DNA of 62,370 bases, filler included, from Rhabdomonas costata (taxonomy: Eukaryota): NCBI GenBank assembly GCA_019059605.1. It is 37 parts of 37 records of this genome, joined end to end, with 100 filler letters (N's around TTAATTAATTAA, not from the genome) between each part and the next. Parts side by side here need not be neighbours in the genome. Positions count along the whole stretch, not along the records: positions 52,342 to 53,929 come from JAHMHO010012513.1; 36 more parts are not named here. The stretch is one strand, 5' to 3'. Positions 8,564 to 57,263 of this stretch are shown here, piece after piece (the stretch's first letter is position 1; each line of letters begins with the position of its first letter). The position numbers were made by a program, and so were the translations under genes. The notes under the pieces were generated by a model, which saw only the letters and a program-made list of their open reading frames with translations, did not search any database and had not been told where the DNA came from.

Positions 8564-10034
8564 GCGACGAATGACCAGGAGTTCCTGCTGAAATACGGCG
8601 CAGAGATTGTATTCGAGTCCGCACGGTCGTACATTGAGCTTGGGGTGTGGGAGCGGGGCTCCTTCCAGATCCATGGCGTCACCGGTGTGTATGCGGGAGA
8701 GGGGTCTTACAGTCCATGCGCACCGACAGGACGAGCTCACTGCTGACACACAAAGCTGTGGTCATTATTCTTTGCAAAAATGCAAGTTGTCGTCTTGGTC
8801 TCGTGAAAAGCTGATGAGTACCGTTTCCTCATCGTTTAAACAGTGGTTTATGGAAGTTGAATGACTTCGTGGGATTTCGATGAGAAATGATTTTTCTGGG
8901 ACATAGTCGCTCTTAGTAGAAAGGTTTCCTGCAATTTTTGGATTGGATTGGATTGGATGTGGTAGATCAGTTGATGGCCGATGTCAGAGATTGTGGACTT
9001 TAGGGTACACTCATTTCACAGGGCCCGACGAGTACACCGCGCTGGTGGACAACAACTATTACACCAACATCATGGCTCAGGCGACGCTGGAGTATGCTCA
9101 CCGCCTGTACGACTCCCTGTCTTTGGGCCATGCCGAGGAGCTCCAAGCCATCACCGCGAAGATCGACCTCCGGCCCGCAGAGCTGGAGGCCTTCAAGCAG
9201 GTGTGACCTCGCGATGCATCGTCCCGCGCTACCACATCCCAGTGCATCACATCAGTTGCGCCACATCGCATTGCATCTGATCCCATCAAATCACACCTAA
9301 CACTGTGAACACAAGAGGACTGTGCGATTAACAGGACATCATTTGACTGAGAAATTCGCAGATGTCTGGTTTCGGGCAGCTCACTTTTGGTGCCTAAATA
9401 AGTCGGCGGCATAAACCGCGAGCACACTGGTCAGACGGAATACTCGGAATTCACTTCCGCATGACAACTTACACTGATACCGCTCCTCCCTCCCTCCCTT
9501 ACAGACAGACCTGGACCTACATCCATTTGCACGTTTTTCGCAGAAATTATGTAAAAGAGAGCGCGAGAAATGGATGCTTGTGAAGAATTTTGCGGGTAGA
9601 ATTTCGAACAAGGACAATCACACGAACCTAAGGGATGAATTACCACGCGTGTGAAGGAGTATGCACGATGTGGTGTTGGGGTGGGGCCGCTCAGGCCGCG
9701 CTGAAGATGTGGCTGCCGCAGGACCACGTGCTGGGGGTACACCCCCAGGATGACAGCTTCCTGAAGAAGAAGTCGTGGGACTTCGAGAACACCCCACGGG
9801 ACAGCTACCCCTTGCTGATGCATTTCCACCCCTTGGTGATCTACAAGCACCGGTATGTGTGTTCATGTGCGCACCCACGATACGGTGCTGTGTGCGAACA
9901 ACAATCGGACCTGAACATCGGCGATATATATAATGTAACAACATGCTGTGTGACATTGTCTTGTTGCAGTTCGTCTTCTCACTCCAAGGACCACACGTAT
10001 TTCTCCGTTCTTTAACAGGGTGTGCAAGCAAGCC
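8564..10034 (+). CDS. GH65 disaccharide phosphorylase, central catalytic domain (trehalose/kojibiose/maltose phosphorylase-like); partial, exons 8564-8684, 9022-9200, 9695-9852, 10019-10034
   Basis: Spliced peptide ATNDQEFLLKYGAEIVFESARSY...IHGVTGPDEYTALVDNNYYTN...YPLLMHFHPLVIYKHRVCKQA carries the GH65 GPDEY, NNxYTN and KQA(D) motifs; three GT-AG introns with consistent phase. Confidence 0.92.
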
Positions 10035-11249: not shown

Positions 11250-13911
11250 GTCCCTAAATCCTCAGCCTTTCTTTGTCTTTGGTGGGAAGGCGTGAAGCTT
11301 TTCACTCGTGGGTCCTAAAAATCCTTTCTGTGAAACTTCCGAGCGGGACGGTTGGGGAAGCACCGATCTGGTGATGGGGCCGTTATTGCTCACCGTGCTT
11401 GTCAAGACGCCGAGGCAGCTTCTGCATCGGCATCGGCTTATTTGTTTGCTTACCATACTCAGTTTGCCTATTGAACCCAAGCCCACATATGACCGGTTGG
11501 CCTCTGTGCAAGCACGGAATGGGGCAGAGGTAGGGGAAGTCAGGTGTCAAGGGTCTGGTTCCGCCCGGGAAACAAACGGAGGAAAAATGAATATTCAACT
11601 CTAATGGGGAATTGGTGGTGCGTTGGTGCGCTTTTCTTTCAAATGCTTCTCATTGGACGTCAAGAAACTCTCACACTTGGGGTGACGCCATTTCAGGCGA
11701 CAGGATACCGGGTCAAAACCCCCNNNNNNNNNNNNNNNNNNNNNNNNNNNNNNNNNNNNNNNNNNNNTTAATTAATTAANNNNNNNNNNNNNNNNNNNNN
11801 NNNNNNNNNNNNNNNNNNNNNNNGGAGATGGGGAGCACAATATATTCGGGAGATGTGGTGCATTCCAGAAGACAAATAGAGTCAATGAGATGGAGAATGG
11901 AAGCTAAGGATGCAATAAATGACGGGTGCAGAGAGATAAGGCGTGGATTGCAAAGCGTAGGAGTCCAAGAGAAGTCAGCGAATGAGATCAAGAGGTGAGG
12001 TTGATTTTCTAAAAATGTTAGTTTTAAGCAGCACACACAATAAGTTGACTTAGCTCTCTATTTTGTGAGTTTTTAGATAATGCGGTGAATTTTGAAGGCA
12101 CAGGAGCCATTTGCAGAAAAAGCGCTTTTCTCTCAAAACTGCCGTAAGTGACTGGGTCAAACAAACGACTTTTACTTATAAAAATGTGTGCGCTGCAATA
12201 CAGTGCACAGATCGGCGGTGTGCCAGTGTTTTTTCCAATCCAGAGTGCTGCGTTAAACTGCTTTTTTATTTGAACAGCAATGATAACCAAAGTCAATGCT
12301 CGCTTACCAAGAGGCTCTCCAGAAAAACAGCCAAAAGAAACAGGACAGTTCGCTATCAATGACAAGTTAATTAGTCCAAAATGCCTCCAACAAACTTTTT
12401 GGAAGTCGTGAAATAGAATTAAACCGAATCAAAAACTAACACGGGCACAAAAAATAACTTCTATTTGTATTTGCTCATATAGATATTAATTTTTTTCCTT
12501 GATAAAAGCAAATAGTATACGAATATCTAATTATGAATCCATGAGTGCGCATGATGACACATGATGACATGCGCTTTTAGCCAATTATTATAGAAACATT
12601 TACTTGTGGGTGTACTCATGAAAACTTTGAGTGAGATTTGCTGTAGATGACCCAAAACAATCTCCATGTGAAAACATGACTGATCAACACAAACTTTCCG
12701 CAAAATGGTTCTGTTTGTGCTCCAAAGCCATGTTTTTAGTTACAAAGATTGCAAAAAGATGGAAAGAAGTTCTGTCCATTATGACTATGGAACACATCTA
12801 ATCAGCCTTTTATCACTTTCTTGAATTTTTATACGTCATGTTTTGCGGTGAAAAATGTGTGAAACGGTAGGCTTCCGTCATTAAACAGAATGGCATTAAT
12901 AAGAGTCAAAGTAGCACACTTGAGTTATTGTCTGAGCGCTTTCAGGGTTCAAATCGACCTTCTAGAGCCAATTCCTCTAATGGGATTTTCCATGAAGGAC
13001 GAGGTCTTTTTGGCTAAAATTGAACCTTCAGAGATGCTCCAGAACATCACTTCACTTAGCAAGGCTCCTACTGCATGAAATACTATATACTATACTATAT
13101 ATTCTTTTTCTACGAGAAGGTTCGTGAGAAAGGCACAGAGGTCATATACACCACAGTGCATAATTGGAAAGTGTCATACATTCACCACATTGTCTGCTGC
13201 ACCAAACACGCAAGAAAAACTCGGAGGAGTCATTATCTGGCGTCCTGTGCACTTCAAGAAGACGCTTAGTCAAAAGTCCCCTCCTTTGTTGGAAGCAAAA
13301 ACGTGAGGAATAGCGAAGGCTAGACAGTGCATGTAGTCCACAATTGATTTTACGTGCCCATGCCCAGCATACCACAAGCTCTCTCTCAGAATTACATTTC
13401 ATAGATTGCAACNNNNNNNNNNNNNNNNNNNNNNNNNNNNNNNNNNNNNNNNNNNNTTAATTAATTAANNNNNNNNNNNNNNNNNNNNNNNNNNNNNNNN
13501 NNNNNNNNNNNNTTTGTTTGGGTAACCAAAGCTTTCCTTGGTTTCTCCAAAAGGCCGGATCTGAATTTTTTTTTTTGCTATTTTTTCAGTTCTTTGTACA
13601 AAAGCCCGAAAATCCGTTTTTCACAATTGTTTTGACTTTTTTTTAAAACCTTTTACAATTGCAAAGGAAGGAATCCCTGCCCAAGATCATGTCTCGAAAT
13701 TTTATCAGTCCGATGCTGACCCCGATTTTCTTTTCCGTCGACTGGCGTTCGGAACCAGAACAGACAATTTCAAGTCCCATGTCCGTTCGTTTTTCTTTTT
13801 CCGATGATTTTCGTTATGAAATCCCAGAAGCTCTCAGCATTTAATGAGTCAGGGACGGGCATTAACAGATTTCGGGAGGGGGTGGAGGGCGGCCGGACGG
13901 GATGCGTCTTC

Positions 13912-22123: not shown

Positions 22124-23142
22124 GGTTCTGTGGCAACGGCGTGGTGGAGTCTTCACTGATGGAAACCTGTGACCCACCAGGCGGGTGCTGGTATGCTTCC
22201 CTCTTGCTCACTTACTCTGTTAACCTTTGCGCCCTTGCTTGTTCGGCACGGGCAGCAGCTCGCCATCCTCGTCATGCGCCACGTCGCCCTGCGCCATCCA
22301 CGAGGCAAGCCCCATGGGCACGTCTTGCTCCAAGTCCTGCGAGGGGTAAACCAGCACAGCACAAAGGAGCTCCACGCCAGTGCACCCTCTATCAACTTGA
22401 TATGTTGGTTCCTCCACCCGCCCACTGCCGTCATGGAGTTCACTTGGATGATATCATGGATGGGATTTTGTCACGCTTTTGTTCTCAGTGACGAGACGTG
22501 CCACCTCATCCCCAACGGGACGGTGTGCCGCGAGGCCTCGGGCAAGTGTGACATCAGCGAGACCTGCGACGGCAAGAGTCCGAAGTGCCCCATTGACAGC
22601 ATTCAGCCCGCCAATACCGTTTGCCGGTGCGTTGTGAGGTGTTGTGAGGCAATCAGGGACTGCCTTGCGCAAGTAGTCCGCCAGTGATGGTGGTAGTGCG
22701 TGCCTGTCTGTAACAAAAAGCTGCGAAATTGTACGAGGCAAATAGTCACGCTGCATCGGCACCCCCTCACCCCCTTAGACGATGCTGGCGCTTGAAGAGG
22801 CACGGTACGTGGCCCAAACATTGTCATTTTGCCGGGAGGCGTGCAGGCAGCTGGATGGCCTACGAAAAGGGAATAAATTGGGTTAATGTAATGTTAATAT
22901 TTGCATACAGTTCTTGGTGATCACAGATATTGTTGTACATGTTAGGGTCAGCCTTACGCTTTGCATTTGGTGATGAGAGGTGCAGGGAAGGTTGTGGTGT
23001 GAGGATCTTTTGGGTATGGGGGGCTCAGGTCCGAGGTGGGCCCTTGCGACGTTGCGGAGACCTGCGACGGAAACAGCACGGCCTGCCCAGATGACGTCCT
23101 GGTGGTTGCTGACACCATCTGCAGGAAGGCCACAGGCGACTG
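22124..23142 (+). CDS. Disintegrin-like cysteine-rich repeat protein; partial, exons 22124-22190, 22489-22626, 23029-23142
   Basis: FCGNGVVE...ETCDPPGGCCDETCHLIPNGTVCREASGKCDISETCDGKSPKCPID...TVCRSEVGPCDVAETCDGNSTACPDD...TICRKATGD; CR....CD..E.CDG.S..CP.D is the disintegrin signature, repeated in tandem. Confidence 0.85.
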
Positions 23143-24133
23143 GTGCGAGCACGCCCCCCCTGTTCATTTGAACCGAAACTTGCCCAGAATTAGTTTTCGC
23201 GTGGATTTCGCGTGCTTGTAATTGGTGGACTTTTTTTTGAATCCACAACTCTCATCCGACGCGATCCCCTAACCCCAGAGACCCTCCGTCCCCCGTCCTT
23301 TCTCTCTCTCTCTTTCGTTCTTTCTTGCATCCTTTTTTTTTTGGTGTACATGGTGAGCTGTGCGGGTTTCACTCTTCATACTGTCCCTGAACCCCTGTAC
23401 GTCTAGCCTCACAAACAAACGAACAAATTTTTTTATGCTTTAGTTTGAGGATCTCACCAAACAGCGGTAATGGATTTGGAGAATAGAGAGGAAGTAGGTT
23501 TGTGAGCGAGAGCAGTGCCCCGATTCCCCCACCCAAACACACCCACNNNNNNNNNNNNNNNNNNNNNNNNNNNNNNNNNNNNNNNNNNNNTTAATTAATT
23601 AANNNNNNNNNNNNNNNNNNNNNNNNNNNNNNNNNNNNNNNNNNNNGTTTTGTGGTCGACCTGGCACAGCTGTGGGCCCCTTCGGCCTTTTTGACGGAGT
23701 TTCCCGCGTATCTCTGTTTGGAGGTGATGTGAAGGGAGGTGCGGGTTGTTGCTTCAGTGGTTCTAGGGGCACCGTAATATTATCTCCCATACATATGGTA
23801 CATTCCAAGTAAAGAACGAGCGAGCTGCAATTCACATTTTCACGCAACTGCATCGTCACACGTGAAGATCTCTCTGTTATTGGCTACGCTCGTTTGCTCA
23901 TGGTGACTTCGCACGCACATCACCCTGATAACATTGCCCCCGAAAAATACGCGCACTGCGGTGGCGCAATGTCTGTCCCGGGACGCCATTAAAGCCGCAG
24001 CGCAAAAGCAGAAATCTTCCGGTTTGCTCGCTTATTAGCAGTTTTGAATTCTCAGCGTGCTTTTTGTTGAACGTTTCATGGCGCCGGAGGGGGTAGGGTG
24101 CCCCCCCCTCAACTACTTGCTGTGTCTTCGCAG

Positions 24134-24784
24134 ATAACGGCAGAGGAAGAGCTGGAGTTGCTGCGATGGAGTGGGCTGGTGGACAGTCGGCTGCGCCTTT
24201 TAGCGGCGGAGCTCCACACGATCCCCTCGCTCACTGTGAGACTCTTCCCTCGCCGCTTCCGGTTCACCCCCGCAGCCTCTACCCTGGTGCCCGCCCAGGT
24301 CGCTGTGACCCCTTCCGTATCAGATCCAGGCCTCATGGTACAAGAGTTGGCAGCAAAGCAGCCAGTGTCACCAACTGAGCATGCATCATCTGGAGAGCTG
24401 GGGAAAGGTACACCTGCTGTTGCTGGGGACACGAGCGCCTCAACTGAGGCATGTGGTCTGCATGTTGGCGGGGGGGCTCGAGGGGCCCCGGAGACAGAAG
24501 GGGCACTGACAGAAGGGGCGCTTATCGAGAAGGCCCCCGAGGCTACGGGGGAGGTGGCCTCCTCCAAGGTGGCGTTGGGGTGCAGGTGGCTGCTTGGGCT
24601 GCAGGCCACGAAGTGGACCAAGGGGGCGTTCACGGAGATTGATGAGGCAGTGGAGCACTGGAATGGTGGGCTGAACACCTTCCTTCGACGGGAGCAACAG
24701 ACATTCCAGAGGACAGCCCAGATGAAGGGGCCCATGGTCCGGTTAGTCCAGAAGGAAGCGGTTGGCTCCTTGGCAGAGTTTTGA
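24134..24784 (+). CDS. PAP: Canonical poly(A) polymerase, terminal exon encoding the C-terminal RNA-binding domain with a long loop insertion
   Basis: cag|ITAEEELELLRWSGLVDSRLRLLAAELH...LFPRRF resembles the PAP RBD motif WxGLVESKxRxL...PF; later RWLLGL resembles the W/F-xIGL strand; ends at TGA. Confidence 0.72.
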   Translation: MTAEEELELLRWSGLVDSRLRLLAAELHTIPSLTVRLFPRRFRFTPAASTLVPAQVAVTPSVSDPGLMVQELAAKQPVSPTEHASSGELGKGTPAVAGDTSASTEACGLHVGGGARGAPETEGALTEGALIEKAPEATGEVASSKVALGCRWLLGLQATKWTKGAFTEIDEAVEHWNGGLNTFLRREQQTFQRTAQMKGPMVRLVQKEAVGSLAEF

Positions 24785-27168: not shown

Positions 27169-28444
27169 CTTTGACAATTCGTCCAGGTCCCATGGCATCG
27201 GCTGCGAAAACTCACAGAAGACCTGAGAAAGCAAATACGACATATTCAACAAGAACGTGACGAGCAAAACGAGAGGAAAGGATAATGCAGCAGCACTGAA
27301 CGCAGCGCCGGAAATCAACAGAATTCTGCAATTTCTCCATTTGCTTTGGGTCAAGTGCTGAAGCTCGTATGAAGGATCTGGAAGTGCTTCGAGCCTAGCC
27401 CACCTTCACACGCGTTTCGCATGCGTGCAAAGTGGCTGCAGGAAGACCAAGAGCGAAATAGAAGGAGTTAAGAAGGAGTTTTAGGAGAAAAAAAAAAGAA
27501 AAGGTTTGAAGCCCGCGGAGATTCAAGAAGTAGTCATCCCCTCCACCTTCCCCAACCTGAGTCTGAGGTCCTGCCCGTGTCCCCAAGGGGGCGTTGGTGG
27601 GGCGGCTGGCATAGGTCAGCTGGTCACGGTCCCAGCGGAAGGTCAGCACATTACCCCCGGAGCGGACCACGGGTCGGTCGGTGAGGCTGAACACACTGTA
27701 GAAGCCCACTCCGAACATCCCCACGGTGGACTCCAAAGGGTTGCCCTCAGCAATGCTGCGTGTGAGCAGAAGGGTGGTGGGGTAAGCGGAAGGTATTTCT
27801 CCTTTTCTTGAAAGAGCACTACATAATGGCATACGGTCGCAGTCCAGCGCAGATTATCACCGGTCATTTGCAAAACAATTCCTCAGCTTTCAACACAAGA
27901 TCAAACATCCGCCTTCAATGCAAATCGAGAATTTAAGAAACAAAATGTCAACGATGACTTCGGTTGAACGGGAGTGGGTCCACCGCAAAAGCAAAAGGAA
28001 GTCGTCTTTGTATGGCACTCTGACTCCAGCCACCCACACAAAGAAAAGAGATCATGAACCCGCAACCTTGTCAGGCGGCGCCAGTCATCCTGAGTGAAGT
28101 CCCGGCCATCGTTAGAAACAATCATCCTGGCTACCTCATCCCCTTTCTTCTGCAGGTGGACCTCCACGTTGACTGGGAAGAACGCAAGAGCACAACGCGA
28201 AGTCGAACGAGATGACCAGGTCTTGCGCGGCAAGAGCGGTCCAAAGCAACGCTACAACCGCAAGTCAGCCACACACACAACGATCCAACCTCACCCTCCT
28301 CCTCCTCCTCCTCCCTTGCGCTTCCATCGACACGTGTCTCTCAAGAATTTACCTGCGCCAGCGTCTTCCGCGTTCTGAAGCAGCTCTCGCAAAACCCCTC
28401 CAAACTTCGTGGAGTACCTCGCAAGCATCTTGTCAATGAGCTGC
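27169..28444 (-). CDS. Sacsin-like GHKL/HATPase_c domain protein; partial, exons 28444-28353, 28172-28067, 27755-27557, 27222-27169
   Basis: RQLIDKMLARYSTKFGGVLRELLQNAEDAGA (N-box), VSNDGRDFTQDDW (G1), IAEGNP...VGMFGVGFYSVFSLTDRP (G2); GT-AG introns in phase. Confidence 0.88.
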
Positions 28445-28775
28445 CTGTGTGTCCCAAGCCAAGAGCAACCCAAGGCAAGATGAAAATAGCAGAATCTGCT
28501 GGCTCTCGGTTGGCATCGCCGGGAGAAGCAGATGGGATTCGATCACAGCTGAGGGAAAGACTCATCTAAGAGCAAGAAGCCGGTTTACATTAAATCTTTG
28601 GCACCCAAACACCNNNNNNNNNNNNNNNNNNNNNNNNNNNNNNNNNNNNNNNNNNNNTTAATTAATTAANNNNNNNNNNNNNNNNNNNNNNNNNNNNNNN
28701 NNNNNNNNNNNNNGGTTGTACTCAAGTACCTTGGGGGAGAGGATAAATGTGTGGATGTGTGCTGCGGGCATTCAG

Positions 28776-30285
28776 GTCGTGTGTGCAAGACTTCCCTTGT
28801 GAGGCGGTACATTAATGACGAGTTCTTAGATAAGGAGCAGACCACTGTCCAGGTCCTCTGCCGCTACGTCTGCTGCCCTCTCTGTTTTTTTTTGCCTTTA
28901 TCGTCATCCGGAAGCTGCAGATTCTGTGTTACGGCTCAGCTGCAGGGCAGCCGAGCTTGGGAAGTGAGTTGAGCGTGCTCAGCGCGCTTGCTACTAGTTG
29001 CAGAGTTTCTCTCCTATCTTTCACTATTTCACTATTAGTGATGAAGGTTCCAGCTGACTGTCAGATCTCAAGTGTTTCCTCGTTCCATTTGCTCACTTCT
29101 TTTTGACCCCCATGTGATTTGCTGATTGGGTGATCAACCCCAAGCTGTATTTTTCGCTGTATTTTTCCTGCTGGAATTCACTGGTTTTACATCTCAGGCA
29201 AGTATGTATTCCAAGAAGAGGGTGTCCGTCGGGGACCAGGTGGTGACCATCGCAATATGGGACACCGCGGGGCAAGAGCGCTTCCATGCGTTGGGGCCGA
29301 TCTACTACCGTGACGCGGACGGTCTGCGTGCAAGAAATCTGTTGTGAGGGCAACCCATTTTGCGGATTTGTTACAAATTCTCTCAATCTGCAGGCGTGCG
29401 AGCTGCGCACTTCGTTCTTGGTAGGAATGAAGCATGTGATAATTATCACCTACGGTATCTCGAAAAATGGAATGCAATGAAAGTTGAAACCAAAAAAGAT
29501 GCTATGGAGTAATGGCGTGGCCAAGCCTCCAATTGACGGCGCAGGAAAGGAAGACCCTTTCCTATGCCCCTAACTCGACGCTTGATATTTTGAGTTCTAT
29601 TCTGTTCAGATGGCATTGCGTGCTCTCCTGGGATAACGATCAAAAACACAGCCCCATATACGTACAGCGTACAGCGAGAGGTAGAGTCGCAGTACGACAT
29701 CCAGAAAGAGGAGTACACTGCTGAAAGAGCTAGCGAGCTAACGCCGACCCGGATTCTTTAGAAGGACCCCTCAATTGGAGGCTGCATTTCTTGAACACAT
29801 GGGATGGGAACAGGGCACAGACAACTCCGCTTTGCCTTCCCTGCCACCCCCGCCCTTCCGTCTCCTCCGGTCTAAATCTGAAATCTAGAACAGGCAGGGC
29901 AGAACTTGTGAACAAAAAACGACCAAACCACATGGAAACCAAAGCATACCCGACCACGCTTTCGAGGAGAAAGGGATAGCCAGCCGGAAACCAATCTAAA
30001 ACGCCATCAGGACAACAAGGGGCGGCCCAAAAGGTTGGGTTGGATGGATGGCCATGGGGGTCCCCCCCTGTCGGCCTCTCTTCGTCTAACTCGAGGTGGG
30101 CGGGTGCGGGTGGGTGCAGGCGCCCTGCTGGTCTACGACATCACGGACCAAGACACCTTTGACCGGGTGAAGCACTGGGTCCGGGAGCTCAAGGCGGTGG
30201 TTGGCGAGGATATTGTACTCTGCGTCGCAGGCAACAAGTCTGACCTGGAACGCTCCCGGCAAGTCACCCTGGAGGAGGCCTTGGC
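28776..30285 (+). CDS. RAB21: Rab21-like small GTPase; partial, exons 28776-28852, 29198-29321, 30120-30285
   Basis: [38 protein letters not shown] and [17 protein letters not shown] is typical of Rab21. The P-loop reads GRVCKTS. Confidence 0.9.
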
Positions 30286-30402
30286 GTACGAAACCCCCAC
30301 CCNNNNNNNNNNNNNNNNNNNNNNNNNNNNNNNNNNNNNNNNNNNNTTAATTAATTAANNNNNNNNNNNNNNNNNNNNNNNNNNNNNNNNNNNNNNNNNN
30401 NN

Positions 30403-31990: not shown

Positions 31991-32184
31991 CNNNNNNNNN
32001 NNNNNNNNNNNNNNNNNNNNNNNNNNNNNNNNNNNTTAATTAATTAANNNNNNNNNNNNNNNNNNNNNNNNNNNNNNNNNNNNNNNNNNNNGTTTGGGGG
32101 TTGTGGGGCGGTCCAAAACCAGGATGCGCAAAGACCGACCGCAGTTTTCCGTTTCCGTTTTCTCTCCACAAGCGCGCGGGGGTT

Positions 32185-32490
32185 ATGCAATATGCTTTGC
32201 GCATAGGGATGATTGTGCGCCAGAACCCCGGCACCACGGTGGTGCACGTGGCCAGCGTGGAGCCCGGAGCCCCGGCCTCGCAGGCCGGGGTGCAGCCCAA
32301 CGACCAGATGATCAGCTTCGGTGGGGTTCCCACCACCACCATCGGGGCCTTCCGCAGTGCTCTGAAGCAGAACGCTGTGGTGGGTCGGAGGATCCCCGTG
32401 GTGCTGGCCGCGAACATGGGCACTCAGCCACAGAGAAGCACCACCATCGTCGTCGGCACGAGGATCCGCCAGGTCAACGGCCTCCCCTAA
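32185..32490 (+). CDS. Small stand-alone PDZ-domain protein (101 aa, apparently intronless)
   Basis: LRIGMIV...VHVASVEPGAPASQAGVQPNDQMISFGG fits the PDZ pattern V..V..GSPA..AGL..GD.I..vnG; preceded by a pyrimidine tract and AG. Confidence 0.85.
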   Translation: MQYALRIGMIVRQNPGTTVVHVASVEPGAPASQAGVQPNDQMISFGGVPTTTIGAFRSALKQNAVVGRRIPVVLAANMGTQPQRSTTIVVGTRIRQVNGLP

Positions 32491-33210
32491 CAAAACGCAA
32501 ACACACACACCCGTATACAACCAGTCAACCAGGCAACAGCCAGCGCGCAAATGCGCTCAACACACACACACACGTATACACAAGAGACTCCAGCCCCCCC
32601 CCCCAAGGTGGTCGAAGCTTCAGAGACCCGAGCGGAAATTGAGCAGCGCGGGTAGCGGGTGGAAAAAAGGCAGGTGCGTGGCAAAGGCCCGGGACCCGTG
32701 AGGGAAGAAGGTAGGGTACCGCATGTGGAACGCTTGGTGGTGAGCCACGGCGGCGTGCTCCCCGAAAGTACCCACCGCCAGCACCTGTGTGGACAACAGC
32801 GCGTACGCCAGAGGACATTAGTCCCCAACAGCCAGCACGCTATGCACCCAACACACACACACACGCACACTAAGTGCATGGGGCACTTTTTTGATGGGAG
32901 TTCGTTTCTGCCCCAAACGGGCTGTCGAATACTCTCCCGGTGTATGCCGCTTCTCGGGGTACGGATCACTGCCGCTGTTGGACGGCGTTTTTGGAAAACT
33001 AAATGGCGCATTAAACCGTGTGGTGGCTCCAGGGAGCTCTAACCGTCTGCGCTTGCCCAGTCTGCGTTGGCTGCTCGATAGCCTTCTGCCACTTTTCTTC
33101 TTCCTGGGATCCTGATGAGAGATAGAGTCAACATCCGATCTCATGAACAAGAGACAGGAATACACCGCCGGCAATACACACTGCGAGAGTTATGACGTAA
33201 CCAGCTTCAG

Positions 33211-33549
33211 GACCTGTGTTCCCTCTCTTGCGGAAGGTTCCCGCGAACCTCCCGCCGATGCGCACCGTGGAGGAGCTCGAGGAGATCCTCCGCGAGCGGT
33301 CCAAGCTTCACGCCGTGGCTGTCGCGGCGTTCAACATCTGCGACGCCGACGGCAGCGGGGTGGTGTCGCGGCAGGAGCTGGCCACGGGTATGCGCAGGAT
33401 GCTTCCCCCGGAGGCCAGCCGGTCCCTCACGGACCCGCAGATGATGGAGGCCTTCGACCGCGCCGACGCCGACGGCAGCGGGTACCTCGTAGGCGGGGAG
33501 TTCGTGCCCGTGGTGGAGCACTGCTTCCGGATGATCATCCAGAATGCCC
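33211..33549 (+). CDS. EF-hand calcium-binding protein exon (two EF-hands)
   Basis: FNICDADGSGVVSRQEL and FDRADADGSGYLVGGEF loops; flanked by cag| and |gtatgc. Confidence 0.88.
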
Positions 33550-36500
33550 GTATGCCCCCCTCCCTTGCAATCGTGCTGGCGCTGCTCGAAACCCACTACC
33601 CGCTGACCTGTACTCAGCGCAGTTACAGCTAACCGTTGGCCTGCCGTGCGGATATGGTCGTCCGTATCCGCACACCACAANNNNNNNNNNNNNNNNNNNN
33701 NNNNNNNNNNNNNNNNNNNNNNNNTTAATTAATTAANNNNNNNNNNNNNNNNNNNNNNNNNNNNNNNNNNNNNNNNNNNNGTGGGTGGGTGGACAACCTC
33801 AATGCAAACCGCTCCCGCTGGGCGGAAATCGACAGCGCAGGGGAGGCGAAGCCTCCGGCCTGAGAGCGCAATGTGCTCGGTTGGGGTCTTGCGCTGCTGA
33901 GCGGCGGGCTATTGCATAGTGTCCGGATGCCCCCACTTGGTTTTTTCTCGCGTTTTTTCTCGGATTGACTCACGCTGCACAGCAGCCGGTCCCCGTGACT
34001 GGGGTTTCCGGGTTTCCAGTGTAACTGTAGCTGTTGCTTTGATTCGAATCAGAAGGGGCAGAAGCAAGCAACTACAGCATTCCTGATGCAGCACGGAAGG
34101 CGGGCGGAAATCAGATCACTCTAATGGATGGATCAAAGTTGTGATACCTTCTGAGCTTCAGAGGCAGAAACGCTTTCTGCGCGTGGGGCGTGGGTGGTGC
34201 GTGGGTTCTGAGTGCAGTAGCTGTTCTGCTTCGATTCAGGGTGCAACGACGGCAATTACTGTTCAGATCCATCCGCGACCTAAGAGATCCTGGAAAGACT
34301 CCCGGGAACGTGCATCGCCCCATAGCCCCGCAAAACCTAATACCTCATCCAGGGCACGCGTGTATCGCCCCTAACCCCCTGGCCAACAGGAAGAGAACCA
34401 CCGAGGATCGGATGTGTGGGCACGAGGAAAACATGCAATTAGTTGTGATGTGAATGCACCTATGCAATATTTTTCTTGGAAGGTTGCGTTCGTATTTCAC
34501 CATGGATGCAAAGTCACCGGTACCGAGAGGGCAGCGCTGGCGGGGAACGAGCTGGTGCAGGCCCGCATACCCGTTGGCGGGGTGTGGGGTTGGAGTTGCT
34601 GCTTTAGGAGTGCGGCGGTGAGTGCGGGCACACCTCTGAATGGTTGTTCTCTGCGTCCGCTCGCTCTCAGAAAGGGTGCGAAGCAGACACTCCGCAAACC
34701 CCTGCGTGCGCATGTGCGTGGGTAGTTAGACTGGCCTTGACAAGAAGTGGGTGAGCAGCAGTGGGGAAGTTTCACCAAGGAGGTGAGGTTTCCGAGAACC
34801 TGTCTCCATTTATGGATGGGACCGGAAAAGAGACAGCGGCGGACTCTGCAAAGGTTTTCCCTCACCGATGGCTTAACCAGGATTGCATGTGGAACACTTA
34901 CAACACAAAGGGCACACCCTGGCGTCCTTCATGTTGCATGCCGGCACAGCGGACGACGACGACGACGTCGACGACGAGGAGGAGACGCAGGCCATGGTGC
35001 GGTTGAGACAGCTCGAGCCACCCATGGGCAGCGCCGCAGCCGAGGAGGGGACGACAGGCTCTGCTCGGGTCACCTTCGTTTGGGAAGACGATGTAAAAGG
35101 CAGAATGAGAGAAGGAAGAGGGGCGGCATGGCGAGAGCTGAACTTTGGCAAGCGTGGATGTGTAGGAGAATCGCCTGGACGTTGACACTTGGGATGCATA
35201 GGAAGAAAATGCGCCTTGTCTTCTCTCCTCAGTCAATCCAGACGGTACCTTATAGAGAGAGTGTGTGTGGGCGTGACTCTGCATGCGTGAGTATGTGTAT
35301 GTGCGTTGGCGCTGGCAGTGCGCTGGCACCTGACTGGCTGACGGTAACCCCAACACCNNNNNNNNNNNNNNNNNNNNNNNNNNNNNNNNNNNNNNNNNNN
35401 NTTAATTAATTAANNNNNNNNNNNNNNNNNNNNNNNNNNNNNNNNNNNNNNNNNNNNGAGCCCAAGCGCCTCCTGCTTGAGAGTACGCCCTGCTGAGCTG
35501 CCGCGCAGCCCTACGCAATTTAAAGAAAAGGCTGAAAGATCTAATTCTTCCCGCTGTACAATGCTTGCTCCTTCTCAAAGAATTCCATGCAAAGGAAGGG
35601 GTTTCGGCAACATTGTGCACGTGGAATTAAAAGATAAAAAGCTTTTGCATGAAAGGTCATTAACACACACACCTAAAACGGCCGAAGCCAACAATGAGAC
35701 AAGAATCAAGAACATGACGGTACCTTCGGTTAGGACATGGAAATTGAAGTTATTGTCTACCACAAAATTGACGAGTCGCAACTTTGTGATATGTATTTAA
35801 CATAATACATAGCATACAGCTTACATCCTATTAATTTTCCATTGCATACCGGACATATTGAGAGAAAATCAGAGCTAAGGATTATACATAAAGGAGTGGT
35901 CGATGTTTTGACTTCACCCAGTGCAAAAAAAAAGTGAACGGAATGGGGTTGGCGGCATGTCTAAAAGGCGATAATTTTGGTTCATACATGGTGGACAAGG
36001 AGGTTCAACAGCACTGCTGTCAGATGTCACCACACAAGAGGCCATCCGCCTGCCCCACGTGTGCTTATGTACAAAAACGCGAAAGATAACGTTAACGCCC
36101 ATGCTACTCCCACCACCGCAGAAGCGTTAAGAAACGCAAAGAACCATCTTGCGGCGACACATGCACAGCTCACCACTTGTTAACTTGCGCATTTCTTCTT
36201 TGGCAGCTCACAACGCGCTGATAATGGCTTGGGAGACCAGAAGACTGGAACAACGGCTTTTCCGTGAGCGTCAGCGGGAGCAAGCTGGCCTTCCTGGTGC
36301 GATGTGGTTACTTACATTGTTTGCCTCAGCAGTACTGCAGTATAGATCCCCACTTTGCAACTGAGGTGATGTTCGCAAGATGAATGCACAGTTAAATGGT
36401 GAATCTTGCTTGCTCGGCAAAAAAGAGAGAATCTGGATTCTGAGCAGTAAACTGAGTTCGGGTTCCCTGTTTTTTTCCCCCGTTTTCACAGAGCTTGGTG

Positions 36501-47820: not shown

Positions 47821-48865
47821 GTATTCCTCAGCTCGACATGGTGAGAGTTAAGGACATGCTTAAGTCCCAGAAGAAGACCAAGTTGATTGGACCTAACTGC
47901 CCCGGCGTCATCAAGCCCTTGGAGTGCAAGATGGGGATCATGCCCGGCTTCATTCACTCCAAGGGGAAGATCGGTTTGTGTGTGTGTGTGTGTGTGTGTG
48001 TGCGTATCTTGGGTTTTAGCGTCTGCGTGTGAGTGTGACTCACCAAACGCTTTGTGGTGGTCCTCTGTCAGGAATCGTTTCTCGCTCTGGTACCCTGACG
48101 TACGAAGCCGTGGCGCAGACTACAGCTGTTGGCCTTGGGCAGACCACAGTGGTTGGAATTGGCGGTGACCCGTTCAATGGTATTTGCGTGGGTGACTCCT
48201 TTTTGTTCCAGATGTGCCAGCTTTCGTTTTCATGTGGCGCTCGTTCGCTTTTGCTCAGGAACCAACTTCATCGATGTCCTTTCGCAGTTCTTGGAGGACG
48301 AGGACACCAAAGGTTTGCGGTGCAAGGTTTTGGGAGCGTTTGTTCTGTCACAAGGATGCCTGTGTTCATGCTGCTGGAAATCTCGGAATTGCACCTTCCT
48401 CTGCGAGCTCTCATGCTGTCCTGTTGTCTTGTCTTTGCAATTGCAGCGGTGAGTCTCCTTTCCATATAGTTGTGATCAAAAAATTTTGGCTGTCAGAGTT
48501 TTCCCTGCCTTTTGAGTTCAGCACAGATGGTCCTTTCTCCTCCTGTCCCTCTCCGCCCTCGCGCTATTCGACATGGTCCCCACCACATTCGTTTTTTCTA
48601 CGCTTCCCCTTACTGCGGGACCCTTGTGGACAATACGTCGCGCTTTTTTATACTATCACACCCTGTGCCCATCTCCATTTTCCATTCCTACTGCATCAAC
48701 TGGGAACAAGTTGTTGCTGCTGTTCATGCGAGGCACAAAACTAAAAAAAAATATCGCCTGCCGAATCCCCTCGTTCGTGTCCTTCCTTCCAGGTATCATC
48801 ATGATTGGTGAAATCGGCGGTGAAGACGAGGAGGACGCGGCCGCATTCATGCAAGCCCACACCCC
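47821..48865 (+). CDS. SUCLG1: Succinyl-CoA synthetase alpha subunit; partial, exons 47821-47973, 48072-48179, 48259-48312, 48793-48865
   Basis: [10 protein letters not shown]...[20 protein letters not shown]...[41 protein letters not shown]...[10 protein letters not shown]. Confidence 0.97.
47976..48002. repeat. (GT)n microsatellite in an intron; others at 20307-20331 (GT), 20040-20059 (GA), 44505-44526 (ACA), 55917-55940 (TTCGG), 412-432 (CAC)
   Basis: Read directly from the sequence. Confidence 0.95.
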
Positions 48866-52000: not shown

Positions 52001-52345
52001 ACCTGGAGAGGGAAGATGTGCGGAAGAGTGATAATCGAAAGGGAAGAGGCCAAGTATCGTCTGGAGTTTTGTCCAAGAGTGTCTTCCAATGTGCCGAAAT
52101 TCATTCATTATCAAGGGGACTAACAATTTGCAGTCACAAGTCACAGGTCGCAGCGCGATTAAAAAAATTGTGCCCCCCCCCAAAAAAAATAGAGGACTTT
52201 ATACAGCGGTGCGATGGGGGGAGGGGCGCAGACAAAAACACNNNNNNNNNNNNNNNNNNNNNNNNNNNNNNNNNNNNNNNNNNNNTTAATTAATTAANNN
52301 NNNNNNNNNNNNNNNNNNNNNNNNNNNNNNNNNNNNNNNNNTTTT

Positions 52346-53725
52346 GGGGTAATGATTGGCCTTCCTGGGCAGACCCTGCGTGACCTCGCCCAGGACTTGG
52401 TGTTCTTCCGCGAGGAAGGCGTGGATATGATCGGAATGGGTATGCATTTTGTCAACCCTACCCCGCTCTACTCCTCTACCGTGCTCAGCAATGGTGGTCA
52501 ATGTGACACAGTAAGGTCCTCATTTTAGTAGCAGGTGTGCTCTTGTAAAAATTTGTACCACAGTGGGCTCACTCACTCACCGCTCTCCTTTACGGTGCTG
52601 TGCCTTAGTCTGGGGGTAAAAGTCAAGTTATTTCTCAACGGGGCGACCGCAGCGCTGGGGACAATGTCGGCAGGTTATCATACTTCACATATCTCTCACC
52701 CAGCCTGTTTTGTTCCAGACCCAAGCGGTTGTTTTGAAGGTGGTTGTGGCGTTTCATTCCTTCGCTATTGAAGCGGACCTTCCCTTTTCGTGCGTGTGCA
52801 TCGTCCGCCCCTGGCTGCAGGCAGGGCACCTAACCAGAGGACACCGAGTGCTCAGTTGCCCGAGTTGTAATCTGTGGGTAAAGCCCCGTCACGGGCCACA
52901 AGAACTTCCCCACCACTACTAGTACGCTGGTAGAGAACGTGATCAACCTCATGGTCCTGTCCCCAATGGGTGTGGTGTGAATGTGCATGGGGGGGGGGTG
53001 CTCAGGTCCCTATATCCCAGCCCCCGGTACCCCTGTGGCGGGGATGTGGAAGGACGCCGTGGACCAGAGCGGGCGTGAGGTGAAGTCCATCCAGATGGAC
53101 CTCTTTGAGCTGACCACCCAGATGATCGCCCTCGCACGGGTCACCATGGGCAACGTCAACCTGGCCGCCACCACAGGCAAACCGCCCCTCCGTACATGCT
53201 CACCCTCACACTTAGATACCTGGCGACACTTGCTCAGAGCAGAGGGCTTCAGTTGTCAGCACAGTTACACTGAGTATATGTGCCTCCCTCCGGGGCTGGC
53301 GTGTCCTTCACTACACCAGCCTAAGTTGCTGAAGTCTTCCAACAATACATCACACTTCACGATGTCACCGCATGCCTGCGGCCCTTTTTTGTCCTTTCCT
53401 CTTTTCCACCTCCCTTTCTTCGCCCACTTGGCGGAGCAGACTGTTTCCCCATAGATGCCTTTTCAGGATACAGATTTGGCATCTGGACAAGTTTTTCATT
53501 TTGTTATGCACCTTCTGAGCGTCCTGAAGTCGATTTTCTGAGACAAAGTTAGCCCGTTTCTTTATGCTCAGCCCTGCAGGCGCTCAACGGCTCTGGCCGC
53601 GAGCTGGCGCTGCAGCGGGGTGCCAACGTGCTGATGCCCATCCTGACCCCGACGAAGTACCGCTCCAACTACCAGCTCTATGAGGGCAAGCCCTGCATCA
53701 CGGACACCGCGACCCAGTGCCGAAG
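52346..53725 (+). CDS. hydE: [FeFe]-hydrogenase H-cluster maturase HydE (radical SAM), C-terminal half; exons 52346-52439, 53006-53176, 53572-53725
   Basis: GVMIGLPGQTLRDLAQDLVFFREEGVDMIGMGPYIPAPGTP...MIALARVTMGNVNLAATTALQAL...GRELALQRGANVLMPILTPTKYRSNYQLYEGKPCITDTATQCR has the GLPGQT, DMIGMGP, ATTAL, GANVxMP and YxLYxGK motifs of HydE. Confidence 0.93.
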
Positions 53726-54429
53726 GTTTCGTCCCCTCCATCGCCTTCTTCGGCAATGCCCCCTCACCGGAACGACGCAGTAGAATCCCAACTGTGCCCG
53801 CTTACTGTGACACGCGGTGCTGAATCGGCTTGACCGACGATGTCCTAGGTATGCGATGGGTTCAGTTGGCTCCTTGCCAGCGGGATTCAACATACATCAT
53901 CAGCTCATCAGCCCATCAATACTCCCCGCNNNNNNNNNNNNNNNNNNNNNNNNNNNNNNNNNNNNNNNNNNNNTTAATTAATTAANNNNNNNNNNNNNNN
54001 NNNNNNNNNNNNNNNNNNNNNNNNNNNNNTTTTTGTTGAAGCACTCGGCTGGGCTTGAGTTTCAGCATCCAACTTCGTCTTAATCCACCCGCTTTCGACC
54101 CACTTTCGTCATGGCACATTTTTATACCCTCAAAAGTCACGGCACAACAGTTCGGGTAGGACAGAACCAAAATGTCGAAGACAAAAGGGAACGGAAGTGG
54201 GCAGGGACCCCAGGGCGAGGAAGGGCGTCCACGGTACAGAGACAGCCATCAAGACAAAGGAAGGGAAGAAAGAAAATGTACGTACATACGTACATACGGT
54301 GTAGCAGAGGGTGGTGGAGAAATGGGAGAGGGATGGAGGGAAAGAGACCTGCAAGGATCGCGGAAGCTTGGCCATGGGAACAGAGCCCGCAAAAACAGAG
54401 GAGTGCAGCGTCAGCGTGGTCAGCAGAAC

Positions 54430-56088: not shown

Positions 56089-57263
56089 CTCAACATCTTT
56101 TTTCGTGCTTCGACCCTGAGCAGGCTCGTCGGTGTCCACAACCACGGCATTGAAGTAGTTGATGCTCTTTTCCACAAACGTTGTTCTTCACCGAGAAACG
56201 ACCACGGGGAATGGGACGAAAGGTTAGGAAAACACCTCAAGCATGTGAAAATCCCGAAACTGCTCATTTACAGAACCGAAACAAACCGAGCAAGAATGAA
56301 AAATCCACACCTGTCACAAGAGAGGTCGATCCACCCACGAAGTGATTTTGAACAAAAGTATTCGTCCTGGTAATCCGGCACTTTTTCAGCAAACTCACGA
56401 GCCGTGTTGAAGTCCCCTTGTCACAAAGCAAAAAAAAATTCCTCAACTCGCGCGAGAGAAAAATCGTGCACAGAGTGGCAGGCATGACAATCATCACAAA
56501 ATGGTTCTGAAGGTGCATATAAGCCCCCCACTTCAGTCTACTCTACTGTGGGTATTCCTGAGGGTGCGGGGGGTTCGGTAGAAATGCACGGGTTTCTTGA
56601 TATTCTAACGTAGTAATTTGCAGGGGGTTAGGTGGCGATGCACTTGCACCCTGGGACATGCAGCATGAATCTGCATGTCCCATGCAAAAAGCTGGCAAAG
56701 CAAATACGGAGCGCATGCCCAAGGACACAAATGAACCACCTGAATGCCAGTAAAACATCGCAGTCAAAAGAAGAGCTTGCTCCGGAGCATTCTTGTCTTG
56801 TAACCGTTCCTCCAGAGCTCTCACTGCTTCTTGGTCTGTGGATGTTCGGATGGGTAGGTGAAAACAAGGAACATTGAACAGGTGAGCACAAACGAAGGCC
56901 ACATCGAACTCTCACAACACCTGTGAGCTTGCAACGCTTGTGCGCATGAAGCATCGCAGCATTTAAGGCATACTGAACTTCACGTTTTCCATCCAGCAAA
57001 GAGTATTCCCGAAGAGCTTCCGTTGGACTTCCTGTGGAATCAGGTGAGAGTTCACAAGTTGAAAACAAATCAACACCGCTCTTAATGCCGAATTAAAGTA
57101 CAAATAAAGTATGAACTGAAAACAAAAAAACAACAAAATCTTCAGAGGTCAGGAACCTTCCATGTCGATGGCCCAGGCTTTCCAGAAGCGGAAAATGGGA
57201 TCCTCCCCACGCTTGGAGATGGCGTCATTGCACACTGACTGAATGTGCCGGTGAAGGCCCTCC
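56089..57263 (-). CDS. IFT139: Intraflagellar transport protein IFT139/TTC21B, N-terminal TPR region; exons 57263-57157, 57031-56921, 56835-56740, 56416-56311, 56185-56089
   Basis: EGLHRHIQSVCNDAISKRGEDPIFRFWKAWAIDMEGSPTEALREY...AMLHAHKRCKLTDQEAV...MFYWHSGDFNTAREF...LRGWIDL...KSINYF follows the TTC21B N-terminus (DPVFRF, EALREF, AHK, D.EAI, KAWLDI) across five in-phase exons. Confidence 0.9.

What the first reader, a model, noticed from the sequence alone, without database searches (positions are those of the whole stretch)
52346..53725. Intron-containing HydE: hydrogenase maturation in a flagellate with euglenid-like splicing
Seen: three exons splice in phase into a HydE C-terminal half, so the gene is eukaryotic and not bacterial contamination. 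Known: HydE works with HydF and HydG to build the H-cluster of [FeFe]-hydrogenase, and in eukaryotes it occurs patchily in anaerobes and facultative anaerobes. From memory, the motifs TMGNVN.ATTALQA and YQLYEGKPCITDTA.QC look like the chlorophyte HydEF type. Inference: the organism can produce H2. This would be notable if the host is a euglenid, since the best-studied euglenid anaerobic route is wax-ester fermentation.
Basis: partly seen in the sequence, partly recalled or inferred. Interest (0 to 1): 0.78.

Follow-up and report, generated by a model that had tools for sequence, protein, structure and literature searches.

The report
Euglenid nuclear HydE hydrogenase-maturase gene fragment
A short contig from the colourless euglenid Rhabdomonas costata carries three intron-separated exons of HydE, an enzyme that helps build the metal centre of hydrogen-producing enzymes, so this relative of Euglena probably has a hydrogenase system that the species' published description does not discuss.

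Summary
The window is 37 joined contigs of about 1.59 kb. On contig 52342-53929, three + strand exons (52343-52439, 53006-53176, 53572-53725) join in phase through one GT-AG and one GC-AG intron. The product is 140 residues with no stop. It aligns end to end, with no gap at either junction, to the C-terminal half of HydE at 60-73% identity to algal HydE/HydEF proteins.

Only HydE models and HydE structures match the exons; BioB and PylB do not.

The host is almost certainly Rhabdomonas costata. A Rab21 gene on another contig matches protein RCo047332 (57 of 57 residues in its longest exon). Window GC is 51.65%, against 51.63% published for that draft assembly.

That paper's Table S8 lists a HydEF-like and a HydG-like transcript with predicted mitochondrial targeting. 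Its main text never uses the word hydrogenase.

The closest relative found is an environmental 1033-residue HydE-HydF fusion. Its transcript starts with a euglenid-type spliced-leader end. The pair branches outside the chlorophyte clade.

H2 production is not shown, because no HydA was seen. This is a new member of a known kind, of moderate interest.

The parts
52342..53929 (+). Whole 1588-bp contig that carries the gene fragment; spacers of N and TTAATTAATTAA on both sides
   Evidence: Contig boundaries. No shared repeats with the other 36 contigs. No Rfam match. No other Pfam-supported ORF on either strand.
52343..52439 (+). Exon A (partial; the contig end cuts its 5' side). It covers HydE residues equivalent to T. 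maritima HydE 197-227 and includes the GVMIGLPGQT strand. The last base is the first base of a split Gly codon.
   Evidence: Translation. NCBIfam TIGR03956 positions 196-226, E 1.6e-4. PDB HydE chains at E 4e-6.
52440..53005 (+). Intron 1, 566 nt, GT..AG, phase 1
   Evidence: Borders read. The junction is confirmed by gap-free alignment to 8 of 8 homologues.
53006..53176 (+). Exon B, 171 nt. This is the variable middle part of the HydE C-terminal half; it holds a eukaryote-type insertion relative to bacterial HydE.
   Evidence: Translation. No family or PDB hit on its own. tblastn matches at 42-56% identity to all 11 HydE/HydEF queries.
53177..53571 (+). Intron 2, 395 nt, GC..AG, phase 1. Shifting the border by one base would give GG..CA, so GC-AG is the conventional reading.
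   Evidence: The R. costata paper counts GT(GC)/AG as conventional, and GCAG/CTGC rows occur in its intron table.
53572..53725 (+). Exon C, 154 nt. It is the most conserved part, equivalent to T. maritima HydE 277-319. It holds two cysteines, seven residues apart, that align with the first two of the C-terminal accessory-cluster cysteines. It ends in phase 2.
   Evidence: Translation. TIGR03956 positions 271-319, E 6.3e-12. PDB HydE at E 3e-9 with the alignment shown. 70-82% identity to most of the 92 hits.
53726..53929 (+). Start of intron 3 (begins GT). It runs to the contig end; no further HydE or HydF exon was detected.
   Evidence: tblastn with full-length HydEF proteins finds nothing downstream of 53726.

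Best explanation
The contig is a piece of a nuclear, spliceosomal-intron-bearing gene of the osmotrophic euglenid Rhabdomonas costata. It encodes the C-terminal half of HydE, the radical-SAM maturase of the [FeFe]-hydrogenase H-cluster.

By established knowledge of the pathway, HydE takes the Fe(CO)2(CN)-cysteine unit made by HydG and converts it into the di-iron precursor. That precursor is completed on the GTPase scaffold HydF and inserted into the hydrogenase HydA.

I infer that the gene continues beyond the contig into a HydF domain, making a HydE-HydF fusion as in green algae. I also infer that it corresponds to the HydEF-like transcript already listed for this species, and that the product works in the mitochondrion together with HydG.

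Shown: exon structure, HydE identity, host identity, and a fused closest relative of euglenid type.

Inferred: fusion in this gene, identity with the listed transcript, mitochondrial location, existence of a HydA client, and H2 production.
For: Identity:
- Colinear HydE-model hits for exons A and C (TIGR03956 positions 196-226 and 271-319). No BioB or PylB hit at E up to 1.
- Only HydE chains are significant in the PDB.
- The 140-residue product is 60-73% identical over its whole length to most of the complete homologues. Many of these carry HydF domains.
- P0031, at 72.9%, passes the HydE equivalog cut-off (285.1 against 254.6 bits) and covers the HydF model from 7 to 386 of 392 positions.

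Gene structure: GT-AG and GC-AG borders, junctions free of gaps in 8 of 8 alignments, exon GC 0.64 against intron GC 0.50-0.57, GC3 0.84.

Host:
- A Rab21 gene on contig 18 matches protein RCo047332 in three exons: 57/57, 44/45 and 27/32 residues.
- The RCo prefix is the R. costata transcript naming used in PMC8219788.
- Window GC is 0.5165 against 51.63% published. The published assembly is highly fragmented, and the culture was monoeukaryotic with sorted cells.
- The Rab21 exon has GC3 0.80, similar to the HydE exons.

Expression and partners: Table S8 of PMC8219788 lists two relevant transcripts, neither with an E. gracilis orthologue.
- RCo018024: '[FeFe] hydrogenase H-cluster maturase'. 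Best NCBI hit is Chlorella sorokiniana 'iron hydrogenase assembly' at 2.5e-245. It also hits a HydF at 1e-120. TargetP 0.864.
- RCo052057: HydG-like, TargetP 0.898, MitoFates 0.977.

Euglenid kin: the fragment pairs with P0031 in both trees (97/87 on 140 columns; 95/84 on 393 columns). The pair lies outside the chlorophyte clade (97/88; 99/93). P0031's contig L001 holds one uninterrupted ORF. It begins CTTTTTTCG, and its last eight bases equal the 3' end of the published R. costata spliced leader.
Against: - No protein identical to exon B or C was found. The best hit for exon C was 82% identical (92 proteins scored out of 104 candidates). Exon B found nothing (53 candidates, none scored). RCo047332 from the same proteome was found. 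So I could not show that the contig and RCo018024 are the same gene.
- Table S8 marks both maturase transcripts as lacking a detected spliced leader.
- No HydA was seen, and E. gracilis is reported to lack HYDA.
- The radical-SAM CX3CX2C motif, the third accessory cysteine and any HydF domain lie off the contig.
- The contig's 4-mer profile is neither typical nor an outlier (rank 7 of 37 from the bottom, r 0.61), so it does not help.
- The trees sample only proteins that share words with exon C. Other Discoba, such as Naegleria, are missing.
Confidence: 0.85

Rival explanations
1. The contig comes from another eukaryote, such as a green or other alga, through cross-contamination of libraries or a co-amplified cell. 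It would then not be a euglenid gene.
For: All best named hits are green algae or Vitrella. No identical R. costata protein was recovered for exon B or C. E. gracilis lacks HYDA. Green algae also have high GC3, so one search does not separate the two. The 4-mer profile is uninformative.
Against: The culture was monoeukaryotic, and the DNA came from sorted or microdissected cells. The independent R. costata transcriptome holds HydEF-like and HydG-like transcripts. The fragment lies outside the chlorophyte clade and pairs with a transcript that bears a euglenid-type spliced-leader end.
Confidence: 0.06
2. The gene is genuine and euglenid, but the maturases do not serve an H2-evolving hydrogenase. 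They could be a relic, or could serve an uptake, sensory or other H-cluster protein. In that case the organism would make no H2, and wax-ester and rhodoquinone-based fermentation would remain its only anaerobic route.
For: No HydA was seen in the window or in Table S8, where all five occurrences of 'hydrogenase' are in the two maturase rows. The paper explains anaerobic survival by PNO, rhodoquinone and wax esters alone. E. gracilis shows barely detectable H2 and has only a NAR-like protein.
Against: Table S8 covers only the predicted mitochondrial proteome, so a HydA without a predicted presequence would not be listed. From general knowledge, not tested here, eukaryotes that keep all of HydE, HydF and HydG have a HydA. 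The exons show no sign of decay: no stops, GC3 0.84, conserved cysteines.
Confidence: 0.2
3. The fragment is a pseudogene or a second, unexpressed HydE copy, distinct from the HydEF-like transcript in the published table.
For: Only a fragment is visible. No identical protein was found in the large protein collection. Some algae carry a separate HYDE beside HYDEF (Tetraselmis, table note read).
Against: There are 140 open codons with canonical splice sites. Identity to P0031 is highest at the junctions and in exon C. Codon bias resembles that of other exons in the window.
Confidence: 0.07
4. The peptide belongs to another radical-SAM family (BioB, PylB, ThiH or HydG), not HydE.
For: These families share the fold. 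Full-length HydE relatives give weak secondary hits to PylB (77 bits) and BioB (67 bits).
Against: For the exons themselves, only HydE is hit and only HydE chains are hit in the PDB. Identity to proteins fused to HydF is 60-73%. The paper lists a separate biotin synthase transcript, RCo027187.
Confidence: 0.01

Closest known systems
HydEF of green algae (Chlamydomonas reinhardtii HYDEF and the chlorophyte proteins hit here, e.g. Chlorella variabilis P0064, Volvox carteri P0024)
   Same: The HydE C-terminal half is the same, at 63-69% identity over 139-140 residues. The conserved exon C block and two cysteines are shared. The likely fusion to HydF is shared by proxy of P0031 and the listed transcript. 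Core chlorophyte maturases are also mostly predicted to be mitochondrial (PMC12924338, passage read).
   Different: The fragment branches outside the chlorophyte clade. The host is a plastid-less euglenid. Fusion is not visible on this contig.
Environmental HydE-HydF fusion P0031 (contig Ga0181508_1559085, locus L001)
   Same: It is the closest relative found: 72.9% identity and sister in both trees. Its transcript starts with a euglenid-type spliced-leader end. It has a roughly 150-residue N-terminal extension before the HydE domain.
   Different: It is from a different organism: 27% of residues differ, and the untranslated regions are AT-rich. It is a transcript-like contig without introns, so intron positions cannot be compared.
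Thermotoga maritima HydE (PDB 3CIW, 3IIZ and others)
   Same: Exon A aligns to residues 197-227 and exon C to 277-319. This includes the GxMxGLPGQT strand and the two cysteines at the end of the alignment.
   Different: The bacterial protein stands alone and its gene has no introns. The euglenid middle exon has no detectable PDB match and holds an insertion relative to bacterial-length HydE proteins.
R. costata transcripts RCo018024 (HydEF-like) and RCo052057 (HydG-like) in Table S8 of PMC8219788
   Same: They come from the same organism and pathway. RCo018024 is probably the mRNA of this gene.
   Different: The paper's main text does not discuss these transcripts (0 occurrences of 'hydrogenase').

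Membership tests
HydE (NCBIfam TIGR03956, [FeFe] hydrogenase H-cluster radical SAM maturase) | Best and specific match to the HydE model, in colinear order | tested here: met
   Exon A matches positions 196-226 (E 1.6e-4) and exon C positions 271-319 (E 6.3e-12). The only other family at E up to 1 is HutW at 0.07.
HydE (NCBIfam TIGR03956) | Whole-protein score above the curated cut-off (254.6 bits) | tested here: inconclusive
   A 140-residue fragment cannot reach the cut-off; the exons score 21 and 45.4 bits. The sister protein P0031 scores 285.1 bits.
HydE | Radical-SAM CX3CX2C cluster motif in the N-terminal half | not testable with these tools
   The contig begins at about HydE position 196; the motif lies upstream, off the contig.
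HydE | C-terminal accessory-cluster cysteines (CX7CX2C in T. maritima HydE; numbering recalled) | tested here: inconclusive
   The first two cysteines are present and align with the T. maritima cysteines. The third would fall in the next exon, beyond the contig. P0031 has all three.
HydE | Similarity to solved HydE structures rather than to BioB or PylB | tested here: met
   For exon C, 8 of 8 PDB sequences at E up to 1 are HydE. For exon A, the 8 significant ones are HydE and 3 unrelated chains have E 0.26 or worse. Exon B has no hit.
HydE | Occurs together with HydF, HydG and HydA in the same organism | tested here: inconclusive
   HydG-like and HydEF/HydF-like transcripts are listed for R. 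costata. No HydA is in that table or in the window. The whole proteome could not be searched.
Fused HydEF (green-algal type) | HydE domain followed by the HydF GTPase domain in one reading frame | not testable with these tools
   The contig ends in intron 3. Indirect evidence: sister P0031 is fused, and RCo018024 hits both a HydEF (2.5e-245) and a HydF (1e-120).
Fused HydEF (green-algal type) | Branches within the chlorophyte HydEF clade | tested here: not met
   The window plus P0031 pair lies outside the chlorophyte clade, which is supported at 97/88 (140 columns, 55 rows) and 99/93 (393 columns, 50 rows).
BioB / PylB radical-SAM enzymes | Match to the BioB or PylB models or structures | tested here: not met
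   No hit for any exon at E up to 1 in NCBIfam or among significant PDB hits.
Euglenid nonconventional introns | Borders other than GT(GC)/AG | tested here: not met
   Intron 1 is GT..AG, intron 2 is GC..AG, and intron 3 starts GT. The definition is as used in PMC8219788.

The most novel reading that the evidence does not exclude
Plastid-less euglenids such as Rhabdomonas costata, and at least one uncultured euglenid, encode a complete, mitochondrion-targeted [FeFe]-hydrogenase maturation set. It would be built around a fused HydEF of the kind so far associated with green algae and chromerids.

If so, their cristate, facultatively anaerobic mitochondria would make H2 alongside the rhodoquinone and wax-ester route. 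The HydE-HydF fusion would also be older than, or have been exchanged independently of, the green-algal plastid of Euglena.
Probability: 0.4. Interest if true: 0.65.

Novelty: new member of a known kind. Interest (0 to 1): 0.45.

Why it matters
Euglenid anaerobiosis is described in terms of PNO, rhodoquinone and wax-ester fermentation. E. gracilis is reported to have no HYDA. The R. costata paper explains a month of anaerobic survival without mentioning hydrogenases.

An intron-bearing nuclear HydE gene adds a further piece. Together with HydG-like and HydEF-like transcripts listed only in a supplementary table, it suggests that some euglenids possess H-cluster assembly, and probably an H2-evolving enzyme, in a mitochondrion with cristae.

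This would add Euglenida to the lineages with hydrogen-producing mitochondria. It would also give a new data point on how the HydE-HydF fusion is distributed. The genomic introns matter chiefly because they argue against bacterial contamination.

Five literature searches found no paper in the held library that discusses hydrogenase maturases in euglenids. Subscription journals are not covered.

Tried and rejected
- Whole-genome access: no genome is held for this window.
- Exon B against the large protein collection: 53 candidates, none scored.
- Exon B against the PDB: nothing.
- Pfam on the three exons: only a chance-level 0.096 hit.
- Linking the contig to the rest of the window by shared repeats: none beyond 14-18 nt chance matches.
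- Linking by 4-mer profile: rank 7 of 37 from the bottom, r 0.61, against a range of 0.42-0.85, so uninformative.
- Rfam on the contig: 0 matches at E up to 0.1.
- Other ORFs on both strands of the contig: 10 scanned, with only a sub-threshold CSL zinc-ribbon hit (17.3 bits against a 29.2 cut-off).
- Further HydE/HydF exons elsewhere in the window: none.
- The paper's intron table (Table S2/S3, parts read) gives transcript, contig name and border type but no coordinates. I could not tell whether a transcript had been mapped to this contig, and I did not pursue it.
- Intron-position comparison with algal homologues: some collection 'proteins' appear to be intron read-throughs, with insertions near residues 31-32 and 92-93 of the fragment. 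Without their DNA the positions are ambiguous by a few residues, so no claim is made.
- Earlier findings of the scan: none for this genome. The word search returned only bacterial and archaeal HydE/HydG notes that do not bear on this case.
- One literature search was set too loosely and gave nothing useful.
- PMC8003979 mentions euglenids only in a table on another enzyme.

Full report
**What the window is.** The 62,370-base window is not one stretch of a genome. It is 37 contigs of 1577-1591 bp joined by spacers of N and TTAATTAATTAA. The finding sits on contig 32 (52342-53929, 1588 bp, GC 0.558). That contig is therefore the only context available.

**Checking the observation.**
- Three + strand pieces translate without stops: 52343-52439, 53006-53176 and 53572-53725.
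- The first intron (52440-53005, 566 nt) has GT..AG borders. The second (53177-53571, 395 nt) has GC..AG. A GT follows the third exon at 53726, and the remaining 204 nt hold no further exon.
- Joined by coordinates in a script, the exons give 140 codons with no stop.
- The product aligns from residue 2 to 140 with HydE or HydEF proteins. The best are P0031 (72.9% over 140 columns) and P0025 (70.5% over 139 columns, E 2e-67). Most complete homologues lie at 60-69%.
- In 8 of 8 pairwise alignments there is no gap within ten residues of either junction. Against P0031, 17 of 21 and 20 of 21 residues around the junctions are identical.
- tblastn with 11 full-length homologues gave three colinear matches each on this contig (33 of 33; E 5e-8 to 6e-23). 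Nothing else in the window scored better than E 0.23.
- Exons are GC-richer (0.58-0.67; GC3 0.84) than introns (0.50-0.57).

**What it encodes.**
- NCBIfam's HydE equivalog model TIGR03956 is the only significant family. Exon A covers model positions 196-226 (E 1.6e-4) and exon C covers 271-319 (E 6.3e-12). The middle exon falls between them but scores nothing alone.
- The fragments cannot reach the whole-protein cut-off of 254.6 bits. The closest relative, P0031, does reach it at 285.1 bits.
- In the PDB, exon A aligns to Thermotoga maritima HydE residues 197-227 and exon C to 277-319. Only HydE chains are significant. The two cysteines of exon C align with two cysteines of the bacterial enzyme.
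- No BioB or PylB match appears for any exon.
- The radical-SAM cysteine motif lies upstream of the contig and could not be examined.

**Whose gene it is.**
- Other contigs carry fragments of ordinary eukaryotic genes, found among 150 ORFs scanned: poly(A) polymerase, a disintegrin domain, the intraflagellar-transport protein TTC21, succinyl-CoA ligase, EF-hand and PDZ domains, and a Rab.
- The Rab exon on contig 18 found a protein named RCo047332 at 100% identity (87 proteins scored among 109 candidates).
- tblastn shows three exons of it on that contig: 57/57, 44/45 and 27/32 identical residues. The lower values are at the ends of the matches.
- RCo numbers are the transcript names used for Rhabdomonas costata in PMC8219788.
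- That paper describes a very fragmented draft assembly from whole-genome-amplified, sorted cells of a monoeukaryotic culture, with GC 51.63% (sections read). The window without spacers has GC 51.65%.
- I take the host to be R. costata, a primarily osmotrophic euglenid without a plastid.

**Is the HydE contig really euglenid?** Direct proof, meaning transcript or read mapping, was not possible. The indirect evidence is as follows.
- Table S8 of the same paper (the one supplementary file held) lists RCo018024, annotated '[FeFe] hydrogenase H-cluster maturase'. Its best NCBI hit is a Chlorella sorokiniana 'iron hydrogenase assembly' protein at 2.5e-245, and it also hits a HydF at 1e-120.
- The table also lists RCo052057, a HydG-like protein. 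Both have mitochondrial targeting predictions (TargetP 0.864 and 0.898; MitoFates 0.977 for the HydG-like one). Neither has an E. gracilis orthologue, and neither has a detected spliced leader.
- In trees of 55 rows by 140 columns and 50 rows by 393 columns, the fragment pairs with P0031 (97/87 and 95/84). The pair lies outside the clade of all sampled chlorophyte sequences (97/88 and 99/93). It sits in a poorly resolved grade with Vitrella, an unnamed EukProt sequence and Mastigamoeba.
- For the first tree I kept 54 of the 92 hits: those aligned from residue 5 or earlier to residue 138 or later with at most 12 gaps. For the second I kept 49 that cover at least 300 residues of the stand-alone HydE P0083. 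The rest were partial or carried long insertions.
- P0031 is a 1033-residue HydE-HydF fusion. HydE occupies residues 150-488. HydF occupies 577-1016, covering 7-386 of 392 model positions at 249.8 bits, which is below that model's 325.55 cut-off.
- Its contig (Ga0181508_1559085, L001) carries one uninterrupted ORF and starts CTTTTTTCG. The published R. costata spliced leader ends in the same eight bases, TTTTTTCG. So the closest relative looks like a trans-spliced euglenid mRNA from another species.
- The GC3 of the HydE exons (0.84) resembles that of the verified Rab21 exon (0.80) and of 6 of 8 other Pfam-supported exon pieces.

**Evidence against, or missing.**
- The large protein collection returned no protein identical to exon C. 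The best was 82%, with 92 proteins scored among 104 candidates. It returned nothing at all for exon B. RCo047332 from the same proteome is in that collection.
- Either RCo018024 is not in the collection, or it is not the product of this contig. I cannot tell which.
- The 4-mer profile of the contig is unremarkable (rank 7 of 37 from the bottom), and it shares no repeats with the other contigs.
- The trees lack other Discoba. They therefore cannot separate vertical inheritance from transfer.

**How it most likely works.** By established knowledge of the pathway (reviews listed; only their abstracts were seen), HydG makes an Fe(CO)2(CN)-cysteine unit. HydE, a radical-SAM enzyme, converts that unit into the di-iron precursor. 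HydF holds and completes the precursor, and HydA receives it. I infer that the euglenid gene continues into a HydF domain, that its product is imported into the mitochondrion with HydG, and that a HydA client exists. R. costata survives a month of complete anaerobiosis. It relies on PNO, and rhodoquinone and wax-ester routes are the only ones discussed by its describers. The word 'hydrogenase' does not occur in the paper's main text.

**Comparison with what is known.**
- The fragment works like, and by the tests possible is, HydE.
- It resembles the fused green-algal HydEF in sequence, and probably in architecture. It is not a member of the chlorophyte clade.
- Its introns are conventional. 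Nothing at this locus shows the nonconventional splicing for which euglenids are known.
- In core chlorophytes, HydEF and HydG are also mostly predicted to be mitochondrial (PMC12924338, passage read).
- For E. gracilis, a 2023 study found no HYDA and barely detectable H2 (PMC10407231, passages read).
- Searches for euglenid or euglenozoan hydrogenase maturases found no paper that discusses them. The library lacks most subscription journals.

**Verdict.** This is a real, correctly read eukaryotic HydE gene fragment in a euglenid. It is a new member of a known kind. The transcripts already sit unremarked in a public supplementary table, which lowers the novelty.

Noticed in passing
window 28714-30302 (contig 18), exons at about 28757-28852, 29189-29323, 30119-30289: Three exons of a Rab21 gene match R. 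costata protein RCo047332 (57/57 residues in the longest exon). I used this to identify the host.
   Followed up: yes
window, whole: The window is a chain of 37 near-equal-length contigs (1577-1591 bp) separated by N/TTAATTAATTAA spacers. Any feature that seems to cross a spacer is an artefact.
   Followed up: yes
window 24071-24781 (+), 22160-22684 (+), 56546-57092 (-), 48020-48466 (+), 32092-33629 (+), 9632-10012 (+), 27398-27853 (-): Other contigs hold exon-sized Pfam matches: poly(A) polymerase RNA-binding domain, disintegrin, TTC21/IFT139 N-terminal repeat, CoA-ligase (succinyl-CoA synthetase), PDZ plus EF-hand on one GC-rich contig, glycoside hydrolase 65, and sacsin. All are consistent with a flagellated eukaryote.
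   Followed up: partly
window 11824-13412 (contig 8): This contig has much lower GC (0.393) and the least typical 4-mer profile of the 37 (r 0.42). It may be organellar, bacterial or repeat DNA.
   Followed up: no
L001 1-70 and 3170-3948: The environmental HydEF transcript has a 61-nt leader after a nine-base spliced-leader-like start, then a long AT-rich 3' untranslated region of about 780 nt. Its protein has a basic, serine-rich N-terminal extension of about 150 residues before the HydE domain, which looks like an organellar presequence. That is a by-eye judgement; no predictor was run.
   Followed up: partly
proteins P0078, P0079, P0088, P0049 and others: Several collection 'proteins' from genomic contigs look like exon-level ORFs or intron read-throughs of algal HydE genes. 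Their breaks lie close to, but perhaps not exactly at, the two intron positions of the euglenid gene. Shared intron positions would bear on gene transfer between eukaryotes.
   Followed up: partly
window 52620-52919 (+), inside intron 1: A 100-codon open frame in intron 1 gives a sub-threshold CSL zinc-ribbon match (17.3 bits against a 29.2 cut-off). This is probably chance.
   Followed up: partly
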